From a virus: DNA of 64,000 nucleotides. The notes below the pieces were generated by a model. That model searched no databases. It worked only from the letters and a program-made list of their open reading frames with translations, and had not been told where the DNA came from. The stretch spans positions 1-64,000 of the IMG/VR virus record IMGVR_UViG_3300021963_000027. One strand, 5' to 3'. Below are positions 16,561 to 49,232 of the stretch, piece by piece. Both the position numbers and the translations under genes were made by a program. Within the stretch, counting starts at the first letter, position 1. Every line of letters starts with the position of its first letter.

Positions 16561-16981
16561 AATTACAATACCTCTGGAACTTTTTGATGGTAGATTCTCT
16601 CTTGAAGAAATCGCCACAATAAGTATGATCTTTGCCTCTCCAAATCTCTCTTTAAAAACTAGAGAACAATGGGGTGGTAATCCGAAGTGCGGTGAAATCA
16701 CTGATAAATTAGTGCAAGACGGTATCATCAAATTTCATGATGATAAAATTGAAATCGACATAACAGAAAAACAAGAACCTATGAACATCCATAAACAAAT
16801 TGAAAATATTCTTGGTAAATATCAAATCGACCAAGAAGATCAAGAAGACCTCAATGATTTGCTGGAAACCATTGGACACGAATCCTTTGGTTCTGGTTAC
16901 GAGAAAGGCTATGATGATGGTAGAATCGATTTCGCAGAACCATCGTTTTCTTCCTATGGTAATAAGGAAGACTACGTTTAA
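16547..16981 (+). CDS. hypothetical protein
   Basis: ORF. Confidence 0.75.
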   Translation: MQTNEITIPLELFDGRFSLEEIATISMIFASPNLSLKTREQWGGNPKCGEITDKLVQDGIIKFHDDKIEIDITEKQEPMNIHKQIENILGKYQIDQEDQEDLNDLLETIGHESFGSGYEKGYDDGRIDFAEPSFSSYGNKEDYV

Positions 16982-17003
16982 AAAACTAGAGTATACTATC
17001 GAC

Positions 17004-17543
17004 ATGATTTACGACGATTTTCAAAAAATCCCCCAATTCCCTCAAACGTATTATGGCATTGATGTTGGGTTGGATTATCTCGAAGACTGCCTTGCAAATT
17101 GGGACAGACCAGACACCCCTCTTATCATGAATCCAGAATGGCAACGAGGGCACGTCTGGACGCAAGAGCAACAAATTCGCTTTATGGAATTCATGTTGAT
17201 GGGTGGAACTACTGGTATGGATATTTACTTTAATTGTTCTTCGTGGCAAGGAGCATACGATACACCTGTATTTGTTGTCGATGGCTTGCAGCGTCTTACT
17301 GCTGCGATGGCATTTGTTCGAAACGAAATCCCTGCTTTTGGAACTTATCGTAAAGATTATAAGGGTAAATTGCGTAGCTTGTCTCATAACCGTTTTCGGT
17401 TTAATATGCTATGCTTAAAAAGTAAAAGAGAACTTTTGAATCTCTATATCATGTTCAATTCTGGAGGTGTTATACACAAACCAGAAGAAATTGAGCGCAT
17501 CAAAAAAATGCTTGAAGAGACATCTGAAAGCGAAATGATCTAA
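17004..17543 (+). CDS. DUF262 / ParB-Srx-like domain protein
   Basis: PEWQRGHVWT and VVDGLQRLT; leaderless start. Confidence 0.8.
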   Translation: MIYDDFQKIPQFPQTYYGIDVGLDYLEDCLANWDRPDTPLIMNPEWQRGHVWTQEQQIRFMEFMLMGGTTGMDIYFNCSSWQGAYDTPVFVVDGLQRLTAAMAFVRNEIPAFGTYRKDYKGKLRSLSHNRFRFNMLCLKSKRELLNLYIMFNSGGVIHKPEEIERIKKMLEETSESEMI

Positions 17544-17552
17544 AATATTTTC

Positions 17553-17580
17553 TTGACAAACACGAAAAACCTGTTAAATT
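17553..17580 (+). promoter_or_regulatory. sigma70-like promoter TTGACA-N16-TAAATT with TG extension
   Basis: Directly upstream of hairpin array. Confidence 0.6.
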
Positions 17581-17583
17581 AAT

Positions 17584-17820
17584 TTCAAGCAAAGAGAGTT
17601 CCTAAAAAATAATCTGTTAAATTATTACTCTCCGCTTAAAAAAATTTCAAACAAAGAAAGTTCCTAAAAAATAATCTGTTAAATTATTACTTTCCGTTTG
17701 AAACACTTTCCAATTTTGAGCAAAGGGGGTTCCTAAATAAATTTATGGAAATTCTACCCCCCGCTCTCTAACTTTGAGCATCAGAAGTTCCTAATTACGC
17801 AAAGATTTTACTTCTCGCTC
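17584..17820 (+). ncRNA. array of four covarying structured RNA hairpins
   Basis: Units 17584-17640, 17646-17702, 17718-17766, 17776-17820; compensatory stems; invariant GTTCCTAA..TAC. Confidence 0.75.
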
Positions 17821-17852
17821 TCTAACTTTAAAAACTAAAATATACTGAACTT

Positions 17853-19643
17853 ATGAAATCACTTGAATTATTCAATTGCGTACAAGCTAAAAAAGGGGGA
17901 GAATATAAAATTCTTCCTGAATATGGTGTCATCGTGGAGCCATCTGCTTCCCATGCCATCACTGAAATCAAACAATTTCTATATAAGAAACTGACAGGCA
18001 AACAATTAAATGCTACTTTCCATAAATCTTGGAAAGTGATTCAGGAGTCCAGTAGAGAAGAATTGTATCTACATCAAATTCTTCATTATCTCACTACCTA
18101 TGGTACGGGATTTCAATCGTCTTTCGTATATCTTCCCAATGAAGAATTGGATGTTCCTCAAGTGGAAACCAAATTCTTGGTGATTCGGGGTCTGACTAAA
18201 GACGAAATTATTGAAAAAGCTCTCGATCTATTCAAGTCTGGTGTTGCTCTTAAACAAGATACTATCATCAATGTTCTTGAATTGTTGAATAGCTTGGGTT
18301 ACGAATTTACTGGTAGTGAAAACATCAAGAACAAAGAAGCTCTGATGTATATCTGTAAAGAGAAAGGTATCGTTCCCACTGACCCTTCGGAATTTGTTAG
18401 ATACTTGATCTATCTAGCGACTGGCAACACTCTCCTTATCAAGAATAAGGACACTTATCTGAAAATTCGTAGCATCTCCAAAGATCAGAAATATTATGTG
18501 AACCGAGCATTTTCAAATTGTAGTGTGGAATCCTTGGCAGAGGTGTTCAACCGATTTAAGCCTATTTTCCTTACTTTCAAACAAGTGTTGTCGAACGAAT
18601 CTTCGAGAACCATTAACAAAATTTCTCGTCTTAGTAAGACTCTTCATGTTCCCATGAAGTCCAACATTCTCAATAACATTGCTGCTTGTGGTGTTACAGA
18701 GTTGATGGATCAGAAAGAGAATCTGGTGCAAAATGCTAACTTCTTCCAATTGGCGAGATGTCTTCAATTCTTGAAACAATCAGCTAATGCTGATGCGAAA
18801 GTGTATAACATTCGTAATGGTAAATCATGGGTAGAGAACGTCACTCCGAATAATAAATGGTATGGTCGTAAGATGGTAATTCTTCAAGATATCATTGCTC
18901 AAAAATTCGGAGAAAATCTGAAAGGTAAAAAGGTATATATTCCCGATGGTGTATTTTATGCTCTCCCAACATCGGAAAAGATGTTTGTTGGTAATGTGCC
19001 AATGGGTAGTATGTTCTTAACCAAATCTCCTATTGCTATGGGTGTTTATTGGGAAAATTCGGGAGGAGCAAGAGACTTGGATTTGTCTGCTGTGGCACTT
19101 AACAAAGTGGGATGGAACGCTCGTTATAATCAGGGCGAGGGTAATGTGATGTATTCTGGTGATATGACAAATGCTGAAAATGGTGCAACCGAATATATCA
19201 GAGTTGATGATGCTGATGATGATTATCTGATTCTGAATAATGTATTCTCTGGTGAACAAAAAGGTTCTATTTTCAATATCGTTATTGGTAAAGGTGGTCA
19301 TGTCGATAGAAAATATATGATGAATCCAAACGATGTTTGGTTCACTACTCAAACCGAAACGATCCAAAGACAGACTGTTGTTGGTTTGATCACCAAGCAT
19401 GGTAAAGACAATGCTGCCATTGTATTGAATTTCGCATCAGGTGCTAATCAAGTATCAACTACTGGTGGTAAGAATGATATCATGCGAAGAGCATTGGTTC
19501 AGAGATGGAAGAATTGCTTTCATGTGAATGATCTGTTGGAATTCTGTGGTGCTGTCATTGTTGATAGTTCCGAGGATTGTGATGTGGATTTGACCCCATC
19601 AAGTCTGGAAAAAGACACGATTCTGAATCTGTTTAAAAACTAG
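17853..19643 (+). CDS. 596-aa protein with C-terminal TerD-like domain
   Basis: ARDLDLSA..YSGDMTNAENGATEYI; helical N-term; leaderless start. Confidence 0.7.
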   Translation: MKSLELFNCVQAKKGGEYKILPEYGVIVEPSASHAITEIKQFLYKKLTGKQLNATFHKSWKVIQESSREELYLHQILHYLTTYGTGFQSSFVYLPNEELDVPQVETKFLVIRGLTKDEIIEKALDLFKSGVALKQDTIINVLELLNSLGYEFTGSENIKNKEALMYICKEKGIVPTDPSEFVRYLIYLATGNTLLIKNKDTYLKIRSISKDQKYYVNRAFSNCSVESLAEVFNRFKPIFLTFKQVLSNESSRTINKISRLSKTLHVPMKSNILNNIAACGVTELMDQKENLVQNANFFQLARCLQFLKQSANADAKVYNIRNGKSWVENVTPNNKWYGRKMVILQDIIAQKFGENLKGKKVYIPDGVFYALPTSEKMFVGNVPMGSMFLTKSPIAMGVYWENSGGARDLDLSAVALNKVGWNARYNQGEGNVMYSGDMTNAENGATEYIRVDDADDDYLILNNVFSGEQKGSIFNIVIGKGGHVDRKYMMNPNDVWFTTQTETIQRQTVVGLITKHGKDNAAIVLNFASGANQVSTTGGKNDIMRRALVQRWKNCFHVNDLLEFCGAVIVDSSEDCDVDLTPSSLEKDTILNLFKN

Positions 19644-20696: not shown

Positions 20697-21071
20697 ATGC
20701 AATTAAAATTTAGAGTATGGAACGGTAAAAAATATCTACCACAAGATTCATTCTGTTTATTCCCGACCGATGACGGTGATTTTGAAGCGAGGTCTTTGGA
20801 GTCTTATGGAGTGTTAGGAGATATTCCAAATCAAAAAATCGAACAATGGACTGGTACGAAAGACAAAAATAATGAAGAAATTTATTGTGGAGATATTGTA
20901 AAAGCTACATCTGATGAATATTCGAATGAAAATTTCATAGCGCATGTGATTTTCGATGATGGTAATTATCTAACTTATATCAATTCTTGCGACATCAGAG
21001 GGTTGTGGAGCGGCGAAAACATTGAAATTATTGGCAATATTAACGAAAACTCCGAACTTATTAAAAACTAG
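20697..21071 (+). CDS. YopX family protein
   Basis: KFRVW..QWTGTKDKNNEEIYCGDIV..IIGNINEN. Confidence 0.85.
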   Translation: MQLKFRVWNGKKYLPQDSFCLFPTDDGDFEARSLESYGVLGDIPNQKIEQWTGTKDKNNEEIYCGDIVKATSDEYSNENFIAHVIFDDGNYLTYINSCDIRGLWSGENIEIIGNINENSELIKN

Positions 21072-21085
21072 AATACACTCACGAC

Positions 21086-22042
21086 ATGCAACTTAACACT
21101 TTAGAAACAAAATTCGCCAAATGCTCATCCATTGAAATTCCCGATGCGTTCTACAATCGCATGTCAACTGGTAACGATGAGATTGACACTATGTTTGGCA
21201 CTGAACAATTCAAAGGATTCATGGCAGGTAGTGCCATCACCATCACTGGCACTCCAGGTGCTGGTAAGTCCACTCTTCTCTGTCAGGTGTCACAGATGCT
21301 CACCACGCAAGGTAAACGTGCTGCAATCGCTTCTGGTGAAGAATCTCATATTCAAATCGCCTATGCTTGCAAGCGTCTCGGAGTGACTGATGTGGATGTG
21401 GCTCACATCAAGGATGTGGAAGAAATCGCTGCTGCCATGCACTCATATGATTTCATGGTCGTGGATAGCTTTCAAGCTCTTCGTTCTAACAAGAATATGA
21501 AGAAGAGAGAGTTCAACCAATATGCACAAGACTTGCTCCTTTCCACTGCTAAAGAGACTGGTTGCGTGTTGGTATTCGTTCTTCACATCACTGTCAGTGG
21601 TCTTCCCAAAGGTGGCACTGATGTTATTCATGCTGTCGATGTGAACATGCGTGTAACGGTGGATAAAGATGACAATTCCATGCGTCTGATCGATGTTTAT
21701 AAGAATCGCTTCGGTGAGACTAAGACTCACATGGCTATTATGAATGCCAATGGTTTTGATTTCAAAGGTCTTTACACTGCTCCTACTGAGGAAGTCAAAG
21801 AGAAGAAAGATAAAGAACCTGCTAACGACAAGCGTAAAGAAGAAATTCTTGCAATGGATGAACCTCCTCACTTGACATTGGATCGTATCTGTGATAAGCT
21901 GAACGTGTCAGGACAAACCGCTGGTAACATTCTACGTGAAATGGTTGGAGAAGGCAAGCTTCAAAAGTTCGGTCGTGGTGTCAATGCTGTGTGGAAAATC
22001 GCTCAAGAGTGTCAGAAATTACATAAAGAATTAACGAAATAA
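21086..22042 (+). CDS. RadA/Sms-like RecA-fold ATPase with C-terminal HTH
   Basis: GTPGAGKST, SGEES, VVDSFQ, KNRFG. Confidence 0.85.
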   Translation: MQLNTLETKFAKCSSIEIPDAFYNRMSTGNDEIDTMFGTEQFKGFMAGSAITITGTPGAGKSTLLCQVSQMLTTQGKRAAIASGEESHIQIAYACKRLGVTDVDVAHIKDVEEIAAAMHSYDFMVVDSFQALRSNKNMKKREFNQYAQDLLLSTAKETGCVLVFVLHITVSGLPKGGTDVIHAVDVNMRVTVDKDDNSMRLIDVYKNRFGETKTHMAIMNANGFDFKGLYTAPTEEVKEKKDKEPANDKRKEEILAMDEPPHLTLDRICDKLNVSGQTAGNILREMVGEGKLQKFGRGVNAVWKIAQECQKLHKELTK

Positions 22043-48934: not shown

Positions 48935-49117
48935 ATGGAAACAACCAAAGAAAAGATGGAGAAAGCTTACGAGAGCTTGAAAAACATTCAAGAAATCCTA
49001 AGCACTGTAGTTGCCTCTGAAATTGATCAGACTTTCGACTTCTATCGCATGACAAATAACGTTTTCATTGCAAAAATGCACATGGAACATATTCTCCAAC
49101 ACCCAATTAAAAACTAG
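48935..49117 (+). CDS. hypothetical protein
   Basis: Leaderless, ends IKN*. Confidence 0.75.
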   Translation: METTKEKMEKAYESLKNIQEILSTVVASEIDQTFDFYRMTNNVFIAKMHMEHILQHPIKN

Positions 49118-49133
49118 AACATACTTTCATTCT

Positions 49134-49201
49134 ACGGAGAAATAGGGTTCAAGTCCCTTAGTCTAGCAATCGCTAGTCATAGCATACTGGTCATGCGCCG
49201 T
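49134..49201 (+). ncRNA. circularly permuted tRNA-like RNA (T-arm, loop-closed acceptor, D-arm)
   Basis: ACGG..AGGG-TTCAAGT-CCCT..CTAGC-AATC-GCTAG..TA-GCAT-ACTGGTC-ATGC-G-CCGT; own M-promoter. Confidence 0.7.
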
Positions 49202-49232
49202 TTTTCTTTAAAAACTAGATTAGAATTAGGAC

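What the first reader, a model, noticed from the sequence alone, without database searches (positions are those of the whole stretch)
17584..17820. Tandem array of four covarying RNA hairpins directly upstream of a TerD-domain gene
Seen: four units share the layout outer stem - 3-nt (AAA/ATC) x bulged C - 6-bp stem - invariant TCCTAA - variable loop - T. Stems covary across units: AAGC/GCTT, AAAC/GTTT, GAGC/GCTC; GAGAGT/ACTCTC, GAAAGT/ACTTTC, GGGGGT/ACCCCC, AGAAGT/ACTTCT. The array has its own TTGACA promoter (17553), while the downstream gene has a separate leaderless promoter (17830), so the array need not be a 5' UTR. Inference: a small-RNA array processed into ~55-nt units that bind the adjacent 596-aa protein (an RNP loosely analogous to Ro60-Y RNA), or a multivalent protein sponge. 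I do not recognise it as a known family.
Basis: partly seen in the sequence, partly recalled or inferred. Interest (0 to 1): 0.9.

Follow-up and report, generated by a model that had tools for sequence, protein, structure and literature searches.

The report
Handle RNAs of a TerD-fold protein
The four hairpins are real copies of a widespread, undescribed small-RNA "handle" that is found only beside one uncharacterised 590-residue protein, in phages among tRNA genes and in flavobacteria beside the RNA ligase RtcB, so the pair is probably a new RNA-protein particle that works like Ro60 with its Y RNAs.

Summary
Four co-oriented hairpins at 17587-17820 share one layout: outer stem, 3-nt 5' bulge, 6-bp stem ending GU, UCCUA, variable loop, U, 3' strand, bulged C, outer stem.

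This is not chance. A strict pattern scan of 164 sources that encode a homologue of the adjacent ORF found 400 units on the gene's strand, 2 on the other strand and 3 in shuffles. A covariance model finds only these four sites in the 184-kb phage. It gave 219 hits in 83 viral loci, all on the gene's strand. Among 151 Flavobacteriales genomes it gave strong hits in exactly the six that encode the protein.

Rfam 15 has no matching family, and I found no paper describing the motif.

The ORF has no Pfam or PHROG family. Its model shows a helical N-terminal domain plus a TerD-like beta-sandwich, and it shows no relation to Ro60/TROVE.

In bacteria the module lies beside RtcB. In phages it lies among tRNA and tmRNA genes. 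In relatives, units with large loops carry YrlA-like tRNA mimics.

My best reading is a Ro60/Y-RNA-like RNP built from unrelated parts. Binding, processing and transcription remain untested.

The scan noted the same system earlier on other DNA (e1-5165873, e1-5954027).

The parts
17553..17580 (+). Sigma-70-like promoter candidate for the array (TTGACA, 16 nt, TG-n-TAAATT). The predicted start is about 17587, the first base of unit 1.
   Evidence: Consensus scan gives 10 of 12 matches with an upstream TG. The scan count is not significant by itself (13 found, 9.8 expected). Both hexamers and the TG are invariant in L004, L005 and L007, while the sequence upstream of them diverges.
17587..17637 (+). 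Handle RNA unit 1: outer stem 17587-90/17634-37, bulge AAA, stem 17594-99/17627-32, UCCUAA, bulged C at 17633. The loop holds an inner hairpin AATAAT/ATTATT.
   Evidence: R1 scores 56.7 bits, E 1.5e-16.
17645..17703 (+). Handle RNA unit 2: 8-bp outer stem, bulge AAA, stem GAAAGT/ACTTTC, bulged C at 17695. The loop is identical to that of unit 1.
   Evidence: R1 scores 57.4 bits, E 8.5e-17.
17718..17766 (+). Handle RNA unit 3: GAGC/GCTC, bulge AAA, stem GGGGGT/ACCCCC, bulged C at 17762. A loop GGAAA could pair with the UUCC.
   Evidence: R1 scores 53.6 bits. The orthologous units in L005 and L007 have GGAAGT/ACTTCC and GGAC/GTCC, which are compensatory changes.
17776..17820 (+). Handle RNA unit 4: GAGC/GCTC, bulge AUC, stem AGAAGT/ACTTCT, bulged C at 17816.
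   Evidence: R1 scores 42.4 bits, E 1.3e-11.
17827..17837 (+). Copy of the phage-wide pre-ORF motif TTTAAAAACTA, 16 nt before the ATG. It lies between the array and the gene.
   Evidence: 92 matches in the window against 4.5 expected, nearly all on the + strand and just upstream of ORFs.
17853..19643 (+). 596-aa partner protein: helical N-terminal domain (about residues 1-355) plus TerD-like beta-sandwich (about 360-530). It has no Pfam or PHROG family.
   Evidence: More than 1,485 homologues. AF2 model with pLDDT 88. TerD fold matches. The N-terminal domain has no clear match. hhalign against flavobacterial TROVE proteins gives probability 0.15%.

Best explanation
The four hairpins are genes for small structured RNAs of a new, widespread family.

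Each RNA has a conserved 'handle': outer helix, A-N-A bulge on the 5' strand, a 6-bp purine-rich helix ending G-C/U-A, an invariant UCCUA just inside it, a U before the 3' strand and one bulged C. The handle closes a freely variable loop.

Inferred mechanism:
1. The handle is the docking site for the protein encoded next to it, a helical domain plus a TerD-fold domain.
2. Each unit therefore forms an RNA-protein particle with that protein.
3. The variable loop is the functional or adaptor end. In relatives it sometimes carries a YrlA-type tRNA mimic.
4. The particle acts in tRNA or RNA damage surveillance and repair. In Bacteroidota it acts alongside RtcB. In large phages it acts alongside the phage's own tRNA set.

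In this phage the array is probably transcribed from its own conserved sigma-70-like promoter. The transcript probably also runs on into the gene.

Shown here: the structure, its covariation, the strict co-occurrence and co-orientation with the protein, and the genomic company it keeps. Inferred only: binding, processing and biochemical role.
For: 1. Structure. In 100 diverse units, 10 of the 12 modelled pairs change on both sides. 361 cells have double-sided changes against 119 in shuffles (0 of 500 shuffles reach this). Sliding the partners lowers pairing from 94% to 35-49%. Units were picked by a scan that demands pairing, so the independent measure is the scan count: 400 on the + strand, 2 on the - strand, 3 in shuffles.

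2. Conservation that the scan did not require: bulge A97%/N/A94%, loop positions 4-6 U99%/A91%/U83%, last loop base U97%.

3. Coupling to the protein.
- 159 of 164 sources have a unit.
- All 219 R1 hits in 83 viral loci are on the gene's strand.
- The own genome has only these four hits.
- In 151 Flavobacteriales genomes, strong hits occur in exactly the 6 genomes that have the protein, adjacent to it and on the same strand.

4. The RNAs can stand apart from the gene's 5' end.
- Units lie only downstream of the gene in 3 loci, and both upstream and downstream in 6.
- One unit lies between tRNA-Pro and tRNA-Glu, 2.5 kb upstream, in S-CBWM1.
- Three units lie about 10 kb away in Phass-1.

5. Units with large loops contain YrlA-like tRNA mimics: RF02553 at 33-46 bits, below the gathering score, in L001, L027, L030, L058, L062 and L068.

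6. Context.
- RtcB lies within 3 kb in 64 of 80 bacterial loci, upstream in Chryseobacterium and downstream in Winogradskyella and Algibacter.
- 30 viral loci hold 176 tRNA genes.
- A tmRNA gene lies next to the arrays in L003 and L024.

7. Orthologous arrays keep the handles and promoter hexamers while the loops diverge.
Against: - There is no evidence of transcription, of unit-length products or of binding. The only RNA-library contig found covers 19053-19236, inside the ORF.
- In most loci the last unit ends only about 15-20 nt before the start codon. That fits a 5'-UTR operator as well.
- The window's own four units have short loops with no tRNA-like module, and the loops have no stable fold beyond chance (-6.29 against -6.03 kcal/mol for shuffled loops).
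- No RtcB is found in this phage or in five other carrier phages.
- Locus L016 has the gene but no unit within 3 kb.
- The N-terminal domain matches no known RNA-binding fold clearly.
Confidence: 0.62

Rival explanations
1. Cis-acting leader. The hairpins are operator sites in the 5' UTR of the mRNA. The encoded protein, or another factor, binds them to feed back on its own translation or mRNA stability. No separate small RNA has a function. This can coexist with the RNP reading if the same handle serves both roles.
For: 148 of 164 sources have units within 600 nt upstream of the gene, same strand (142 of them only there). The median gap from the last unit to the coding region is 20 nt. No terminator-like site lies between array and gene in the window. 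In Bacteroidota the unit nearest the ATG is a distinct conserved type, ATAGGT/aaa/AGGAGT...ACTCCT/c/ACTTAT.
Against: Units also occur only downstream of the gene, inside tRNA arrays kilobases away, and 10 kb away. Some units carry tRNA mimics, which have no obvious use in an operator. Copy number varies from 1 to 4 or more, and unit sequences within one array are divergent. In the window the array lies upstream of the gene's own copy of the per-gene motif.
Confidence: 0.22
2. RNA antidote or sponge, like a type III toxin-antitoxin pair. The tandem RNAs are cut into units that bind and neutralise a harmful activity of the adjacent protein, as ToxI does with ToxN.
For: The layout is a tandem array of structured RNA units directly upstream of and co-oriented with a protein gene. 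Co-inheritance is strict. The module occurs in phages and in variable bacterial neighbourhoods.
Against: Units within an array are not near-identical repeats; they covary. No terminator lies between RNA and gene. The protein has about 590 residues and shows no nuclease family or fold hit. Single-copy units are common (25 loci). The conserved linkage to RtcB and to tRNA arrays points to RNA metabolism.
Confidence: 0.08
3. The element works as DNA. The repeats are protein-binding or recombination sites that fold in single-stranded DNA (attC-like or origin-like) and are not RNA.
For: The hairpins have conserved extrahelical bases and a variable centre, which loosely recalls folded attC sites. This comparison rests on my own knowledge.
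Against: There are 400 units on the gene's strand against 2 on the other. G-U pairs are tolerated, for example 21 of 100 units at one outer pair. tRNA-like modules lie inside loops. A conserved promoter sits at the array's 5' edge. The few neighbouring ORFs I scanned against Pfam gave no integrase or replication-initiator family.
Confidence: 0.03

Closest known systems
Ro60 (Rsr) with bacterial Y RNAs YrlA and YrlB, as in the Salmonella rsr-yrlBA-rtcBA operon (Chen et al. 2014, PMC4201824)
   Same: One to several small structured RNAs are encoded in tandem beside, and co-oriented with, a protein of about 550-600 aa. The RNA is modular: a conserved bulged helix at the paired ends plus a variable module, which in some members is a YrlA-type tRNA mimic. 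The module is linked to RtcB in bacteria and occurs in phages. The handle core GUUCCUA resembles the metazoan Ro-contacted GGUCCGA quoted in PMC4201824; this is a resemblance only.
   Different: The protein is not TROVE plus vWA. There is no Pfam hit, hhalign probability against flavobacterial Ro60 is 0.15%, and the C-terminal domain is TerD-like. The handle lacks the bacterial GNCGAAN0-1G motif, and the window's units match neither Y_RNA nor YrlA in Rfam. Two of the six carrier genomes also encode a true TROVE protein at another locus with no handle RNA beside it, so the systems coexist. The carrier phages examined have no RtcB.
Rfam YrlA (RF02553)
   Same: The tRNA-like T-arm/closed-acceptor/D-arm module inside large-loop units of relatives aligns to the YrlA model over its full length (L001 2619-2733; L068 2496-2590).
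   Different: All scores (33-46 bits) are below the gathering score of 69. The match comes from the tRNA-like part only, and the closing stem differs. The window's four units have no such module.
TerD family proteins (PF02342; structures 2qz7, 2kxt, 3ibz)
   Same: The C-terminal beta-sandwich (about 390-548) superposes on TerD: Z 9.1, rmsd 3.0 A over 136 residues; Foldseek probability 1.0. Invariant D408, D410, S435-G436-D437 and E447 recall TerD calcium-site residues; that comparison rests on my own knowledge and was not tested.
   Different: There is no Pfam TerD hit at E 0.01 or better. The domain is fused to a 355-residue helical domain that typical ~190-aa TerD proteins lack. I saw no other Ter genes among the few neighbouring ORFs I scanned. 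To my knowledge an RNA partner is not described for TerD proteins.
Type III toxin-antitoxin systems (ToxIN and relatives)
   Same: A tandem array of structured RNA units lies immediately upstream of a protein gene on the same strand.
   Different: The units are diverged and covarying, not identical repeats. No intervening terminator is present. The protein is large and not ToxN-like. See the rival explanations.

Membership tests
Ro60/Y RNA ribonucleoprotein (Rsr with YrlA/YrlB) | The protein has a TROVE domain detectable by sequence | tested here: not met
   No Pfam family at E 0.01 or better. hhalign of family alignment A1 against 7 flavobacterial TROVE proteins (A4) gives probability 0.15%, E 0.39.
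Ro60/Y RNA ribonucleoprotein (Rsr with YrlA/YrlB) | The protein has the Ro60 fold: a HEAT-repeat ring followed by a vWA domain | tested here: inconclusive
   No Ro60 chain appears among the listed matches for the whole model or the N-terminal model. The helical matches are weak and generic (Z 7.5 or less). The C-terminal domain is TerD-like, not vWA.
Ro60/Y RNA ribonucleoprotein (Rsr with YrlA/YrlB) | The RNA carries the Ro-binding motif near its 5' end (GNCGAAN0-1G in bacteria, GGUCCGA in metazoa; PMC4201824) | tested here: not met
   The handle consensus is RRNAGU-UCCUAU. Rfam Y_RNA and YrlA do not match the window region even at E up to 10.
Ro60/Y RNA ribonucleoprotein (Rsr with YrlA/YrlB) | At least one partner RNA per genome has a tRNA-like domain | tested here: inconclusive
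   Present below threshold in several relatives. Absent from the window's four units. The phage has a separate permuted tRNA mimic at 49132-49206 that lacks the handle.
Ro60/Y RNA ribonucleoprotein (Rsr with YrlA/YrlB) | The RNA physically binds the protein | not testable with these tools
   Needs EMSA, RIP or a solved structure.
Rfam YrlA (RF02553) | Score at or above the gathering threshold of 69 bits | tested here: not met
   The best score is 46.1 bits, in L068. There is no hit in the window array.
TerD domain (PF02342) | Match to the Pfam profile | tested here: not met
   hmmscan found 0 families at E 0.01 or better.
TerD domain (PF02342) | TerD beta-sandwich fold | tested here: met
   Foldseek probability 1.0 to 3ibz, 2kxt and 2qng. 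VIA Z 9.1 to 2qz7 and 8.3 to 2kxt over about 136 residues. The query is a predicted model with pLDDT 88.
Type III toxin-antitoxin (ToxIN-like) | Near-identical tandem RNA repeats, a terminator before the toxin gene, and a ToxN-type endoribonuclease | tested here: not met
   The units differ and covary. No terminator-like site is found. The protein has no nuclease family or fold match.
Any Rfam 15 family | A covariance-model match | tested here: not met
   The gathering-threshold scan of the window gives tRNAs only. The scan of 17400-18000 at E up to 10 gives only noise hits of 14-19 bits. Chryseobacterium locus L116 gave no hit on its array.

The most novel reading that the evidence does not exclude
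This is a previously undescribed and widespread ribonucleoprotein class. A non-TROVE protein (helical domain plus TerD fold) is loaded through a dedicated RNA handle with interchangeable RNA modules, including tRNA mimics. It acts in tRNA or RNA damage surveillance with RtcB in Bacteroidota. Large phages have captured it into their tRNA islands to protect or manipulate the tRNA pool during infection. It would be a convergent counterpart of Ro60/Y RNA built from unrelated protein and RNA parts.
Probability: 0.5. Interest if true: 0.9.

Novelty: new variant of a known kind. Interest (0 to 1): 0.8.

Why it matters
Ro60 with its Y RNAs is so far the model for a protein whose action is set by dedicated structured small RNAs in RNA quality control. 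Its bacterial biology, and the purpose of the tRNA mimicry, are still poorly understood.

This finding is a second system with the same logic, built from unrelated parts. It has tandem partner RNAs beside the gene, a conserved bulged-helix handle, optional tRNA-mimic modules and an RtcB neighbourhood. It also has more than a thousand protein homologues and hundreds of covarying RNA examples.

That gives an independent test of what such particles do. It assigns a first candidate role to a large orphan protein family and to an RNA-linked TerD fold. It also explains unannotated gaps in phage tRNA islands, including a probably spurious ORF in the S-CRM01 record.

The handle is short, has a sharply defined consensus and is easy to mutate. 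Binding and structural studies should therefore be straightforward.

Tried and rejected
- **Known RNA family.** Rfam at gathering and permissive thresholds gave nothing for the array. The GUCCY-hairpin and Pedo-repair motifs of Weinberg et al. 2010 were read and differ. [quoted passage not shown] Pedo-repair is a three-stem junction before radC operons.
- **Literature.** Searches for RtcB+TerD, YrlA, TerD domain with RNA-binding, and RtcB with flavobacterial structured RNA found no description of this system. Burroughs & Aravind 2016 (PMC5062991) is not held, so I could not check it.
- **Near-identical phage DNA.** Megablast against 50,697 phage records found nothing. tblastn found the protein in only three cultured phages: S-CRM01, S-CBWM1 and Phass-1.
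- **Expression.** One metatranscriptome run holds a 184-nt contig inside the ORF (19053-19236) and nothing on the array. These are contigs only, so this says nothing about the hairpins.
- **N-terminal domain fold.** Foldseek's best E-value is 0.027. The VIA-align best Z is 7.5 over about 75 residues. Both are generic helical or PPR/HEAT-like matches, and no family can be assigned.
- **ESM Atlas.** It returned only unnamed viral clusters, plus a weak lead to a cluster in which 22% of members carry TerD.
- **Conserved inner structure of short loops.** They are no more stable than shuffled loops. A UGG(A) 7-10 nt before the 3' strand is enriched (GG in 41% of loops against 17% in shuffles) and could pair with UCC in some units, but it is optional.
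- **Replacement of Ro60.** Mutual exclusion is rejected, because 2 of the 6 carrier genomes also have TROVE.

Full report
**1.

The + strand between 17587 and 17820 carries four hairpins with one common plan. The plan is:
- an outer stem of 4-8 bp;
- a 3-nt bulge on the 5' strand (AAA three times, AUC once);
- a 6-bp stem whose last two pairs are always G-C and U-A;
- the sequence UCCUAA;
- a variable loop that ends in U;
- the 3' strand of the 6-bp stem;
- one bulged C;
- the 3' strand of the outer stem.

Exact unit coordinates are in the parts list.

ViennaRNA folds 17575-17852 into these four hairpins (z = -3.74; no shuffle folds as well). GTTCCTAA occurs five times in 64 kb, and four of those are here.

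**2. The adjacent gene**

ORF 17853-19643 (596 aa) has no Pfam and no PHROG family. It does have more than 1,485 homologues of similar length in metagenomes, phages and Bacteroidota, none with a precomputed Pfam domain.

An AlphaFold model built on 30 homologues is confident (pLDDT 88, pTM 0.85). It has two parts.
- Residues ~360-548 form a beta-sandwich that matches TerD structures. Foldseek gives probability 1.0 to 3ibz, 2kxt and 2qng.
- Residues 1-355 are helical. Folded alone, they match nothing clearly (Foldseek best E 0.027; VIA best Z 7.5 over ~75 residues; generic repeat and PPR-like rows).

A profile-profile comparison with seven flavobacterial TROVE (Ro60) proteins is negative (probability 0.15%).

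**3. The hairpins belong to a large RNA family tied to this protein**

The three cultured phages that encode a homologue all carry the same motif beside the gene.
- S-CRM01 has five or six units upstream and one downstream.
- S-CBWM1 has one unit directly upstream and one between tRNA-Pro and tRNA-Glu, 2.5 kb away.
- Phass-1 has a tandem set 1.3 kb downstream, ending at a tmRNA gene.

I then fetched 80 viral and 80 bacterial loci that encode homologues.

*Pattern scan.* The scan demanded the full layout. It found 400 units on the gene's strand, 2 on the opposite strand and 3 in shuffled sequence. Units were present in 159 of 164 sources.

*Conservation the scan did not require.* Several positions are nonetheless nearly invariant:
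- the bulge is A97%/N/A94%;
- loop positions 4-6 are U99%/A91%/U83%;
- the last loop base is U97%;
- the 5' strand of the inner stem is purine-rich.

*Covariation.* In an alignment of 100 diverse units, 10 of the 12 pairs change on both sides. Cells with double-sided changes number 361 against 119 in column shuffles (0 of 500 shuffles reach this). Sliding the partners by 1-3 columns drops pairing from 94% to 35-49%. The units were selected for pairing, so the percentage paired is circular. The strand asymmetry and the shuffle counts are not.

*Covariance model R1.*
- It finds only the four units in the window and in the whole 184-kb phage record.
- It gives 219 hits in 83 viral loci, all on the gene's strand.
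- In whole genomes of five other carrier phages the hits cluster at the gene. Phass-1 has three additional hits ~10 kb away.

*Presence and absence.* I searched 151 evenly drawn Flavobacteriales genomes. Strong R1 hits (E 8e-9 or lower) occur in exactly six genomes. The same six are the only ones with the full-length protein. In each, the RNAs lie just upstream on the same strand.

*Exceptions.*
- L016 has intact flanks and no unit within 3 kb.
- L010 has only a weak hit 1.8 kb upstream.
- L012 and L031 lack upstream sequence.

**4. What the company says**

*Bacteria.* In Chryseobacterium the order is rtcB, a terminator-like hairpin, three handle RNAs, then the gene. RtcB lies within 3 kb in 64 of the 80 bacterial loci. 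It is upstream in Chryseobacterium and downstream in Winogradskyella, Algibacter and a Flavobacteriaceae MAG, so the linkage survives rearrangement. Most of these loci are from one genus, so the count is phylogenetically redundant. In Epilithonimonas a WYL/WCX regulator lies divergently upstream.

*Phages.* No RtcB is found within the 83 viral loci, in this phage, or in five other carrier phages. Instead the module sits in tRNA islands: 30 viral loci hold 176 tRNA genes within 3 kb. Two loci also have a tmRNA gene nearby.

*tRNA mimics.* Units with large loops (60-140 nt) contain a circularly permuted tRNA-like module. It aligns to Rfam YrlA over the model's full length in L001 and L068, but below the gathering score (33-46 bits against 69). 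This holds in L001, L027, L030, L058, L062 and L068.

*Overall architecture.* The family is modular: one handle, interchangeable heads. This mirrors Salmonella YrlA (tRNA-like) and YrlB (short), which lie beside rsr and rtcBA (PMC4201824).

*Coexistence with Ro60.* True TROVE proteins exist in 7 of the 151 Flavobacteriales genomes, including 2 of the 6 carriers. They sit at other loci with no handle RNA. The new module therefore coexists with Ro60 and does not simply replace it.

**5. This phage's array in detail**

*Promoter.* A TTGACA-16-TG-n-TAAATT site sits at 17553-17580. On a consensus scan alone it is unremarkable. However, both hexamers and the TG are invariant in relatives whose protein is only 71-76% identical, while the sequence upstream of them diverges. 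The predicted start falls at the first base of unit 1.

*Orthologous arrays.* In the same alignment the handles are kept and the loops diverge. Unit 3 shows compensatory changes between orthologues: GGGGGU/ACCCCC against GGAAGU/ACUUCC, and GAGC/GCUC against GGAC/GUCC.

*Between array and gene.* A copy of TTTAAAAACTA lies between unit 4 and the ATG. The motif occurs 92 times in the window, almost always just before an ORF. It is the phage's general gene-start signal. It is not evidence for a private or leaderless promoter. No terminator-like site separates array and gene.

*Loops.* The four loops are short (21-27 nt) and carry no tRNA-like module. Across the family, short loops have no stable fold beyond chance. 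An optional UGG(A) is enriched and could pair with UCC.

**6. Interpretation**

The data show a structured RNA element under strong selection, functionally coupled to one protein family. The most economical mechanism is that the protein recognises the handle.

*In favour of free-standing partner RNAs (an RNP; confidence 0.62):*
- units lie downstream of the gene, inside tRNA arrays, or kilobases away;
- some units carry tRNA-mimic heads;
- copy number varies;
- the parallel with rsr-yrl-rtcB is close.

*In favour of a cis-acting operator (confidence 0.22; not exclusive of the RNP reading):*
- the usual position is directly before the start codon, with a median gap of 20 nt;
- in Bacteroidota the unit nearest the ATG is a distinct conserved type.

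A ToxIN-like antidote reading (0.08) and a DNA-level reading (0.03) fit poorly, for the reasons given under the rival explanations.

Transcription, processing and binding were not tested. The one RNA-library contig found lies inside the ORF.

**7. Novelty**

Rfam 15 has no match. The papers I could search describe nothing like it. Burroughs & Aravind 2016 could not be read.

The same scan noted this system twice before on other DNA: a flavobacterial locus (e1-5165873) and another large phage (e1-5954027).

I class it as a new variant of a known kind. The system logic is that of Ro60/Y RNA, but the protein family and the RNA handle are both new and are not detectably related to Ro60 or to Y RNA stems.

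Noticed in passing
window, 92 sites, e.g. 17827-17837, 19632-19642, 49106-49116, 49207-49217: The motif TTAAAAAACTA (one mismatch allowed) occurs 92 times against 4.5 expected. It is almost always on the + strand and a short distance upstream of ORF starts. It is probably a phage-specific promoter or translation-start signal. It also flanks the tRNA-mimic cassette at about 49.1 kb.
   Followed up: partly
window 16800-17543 (+): The ORF just upstream of the array has a GmrSD_N (DUF262-type) domain (PF03235, E 2.7e-9; phrog_1583, E 1e-20). It may be a nuclease-related protein next to the RNA module.
   Followed up: no
window 49132-49206 (+): A permuted, anticodon-less tRNA mimic was noted by an earlier agent (e1-5830179). 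I read the sequence: it lacks the GUUCCUA handle and R1 does not match it. In this phage the tRNA-mimic module and the handle RNAs are therefore separate genes. In relatives the two can be fused.
   Followed up: partly
L001 2788-2934 (Synechococcus phage S-CRM01, annotated CDS g173c, minus strand): This annotated 48-aa hypothetical ORF lies antisense across three handle-RNA units (L001 2744-2804, 2812-2875, 2886-2965). It is probably a spurious gene call.
   Followed up: partly
L003 5987-6453 and 6461-6899 (Phage Phass-1); L024 3530-3806: A tmRNA gene directly follows the tandem handle-RNA set in Phass-1, and a tmRNA gene lies just after the protein gene in L024. Phass-1 also has three further handle RNAs about 10 kb from the gene (record positions 105672-107239).
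   Followed up: partly
G045 and G058 (Flavobacteriales genomes); loci L169, L174, L175: Two of the six carrier genomes also encode a canonical TROVE/Ro60 protein on another contig, with no R1 hit beside it. The two systems coexist.
   Followed up: partly
L087 1165-2178 (-), Epilithonimonas hungarica: A WYL/WCX-domain regulator is encoded divergently upstream of the array and gene in a locus that has no RtcB within 3 kb. It is a possible dedicated regulator. I saw it in one locus only.
   Followed up: no
L016 (IMGVR_UViG_3300022695_000124): This locus has a homologue of the protein and full 3-kb flanks but no handle RNA, even with filters off. It is the only clear exception among the viral loci.
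   Followed up: no
window 20697-21071 and 21086-22042 (+): Downstream neighbours are a YopX-family protein (E 4e-14) and a KaiC/RecA-like P-loop ATPase (E 2e-11). I examined no link between them and the RNA module.
   Followed up: no
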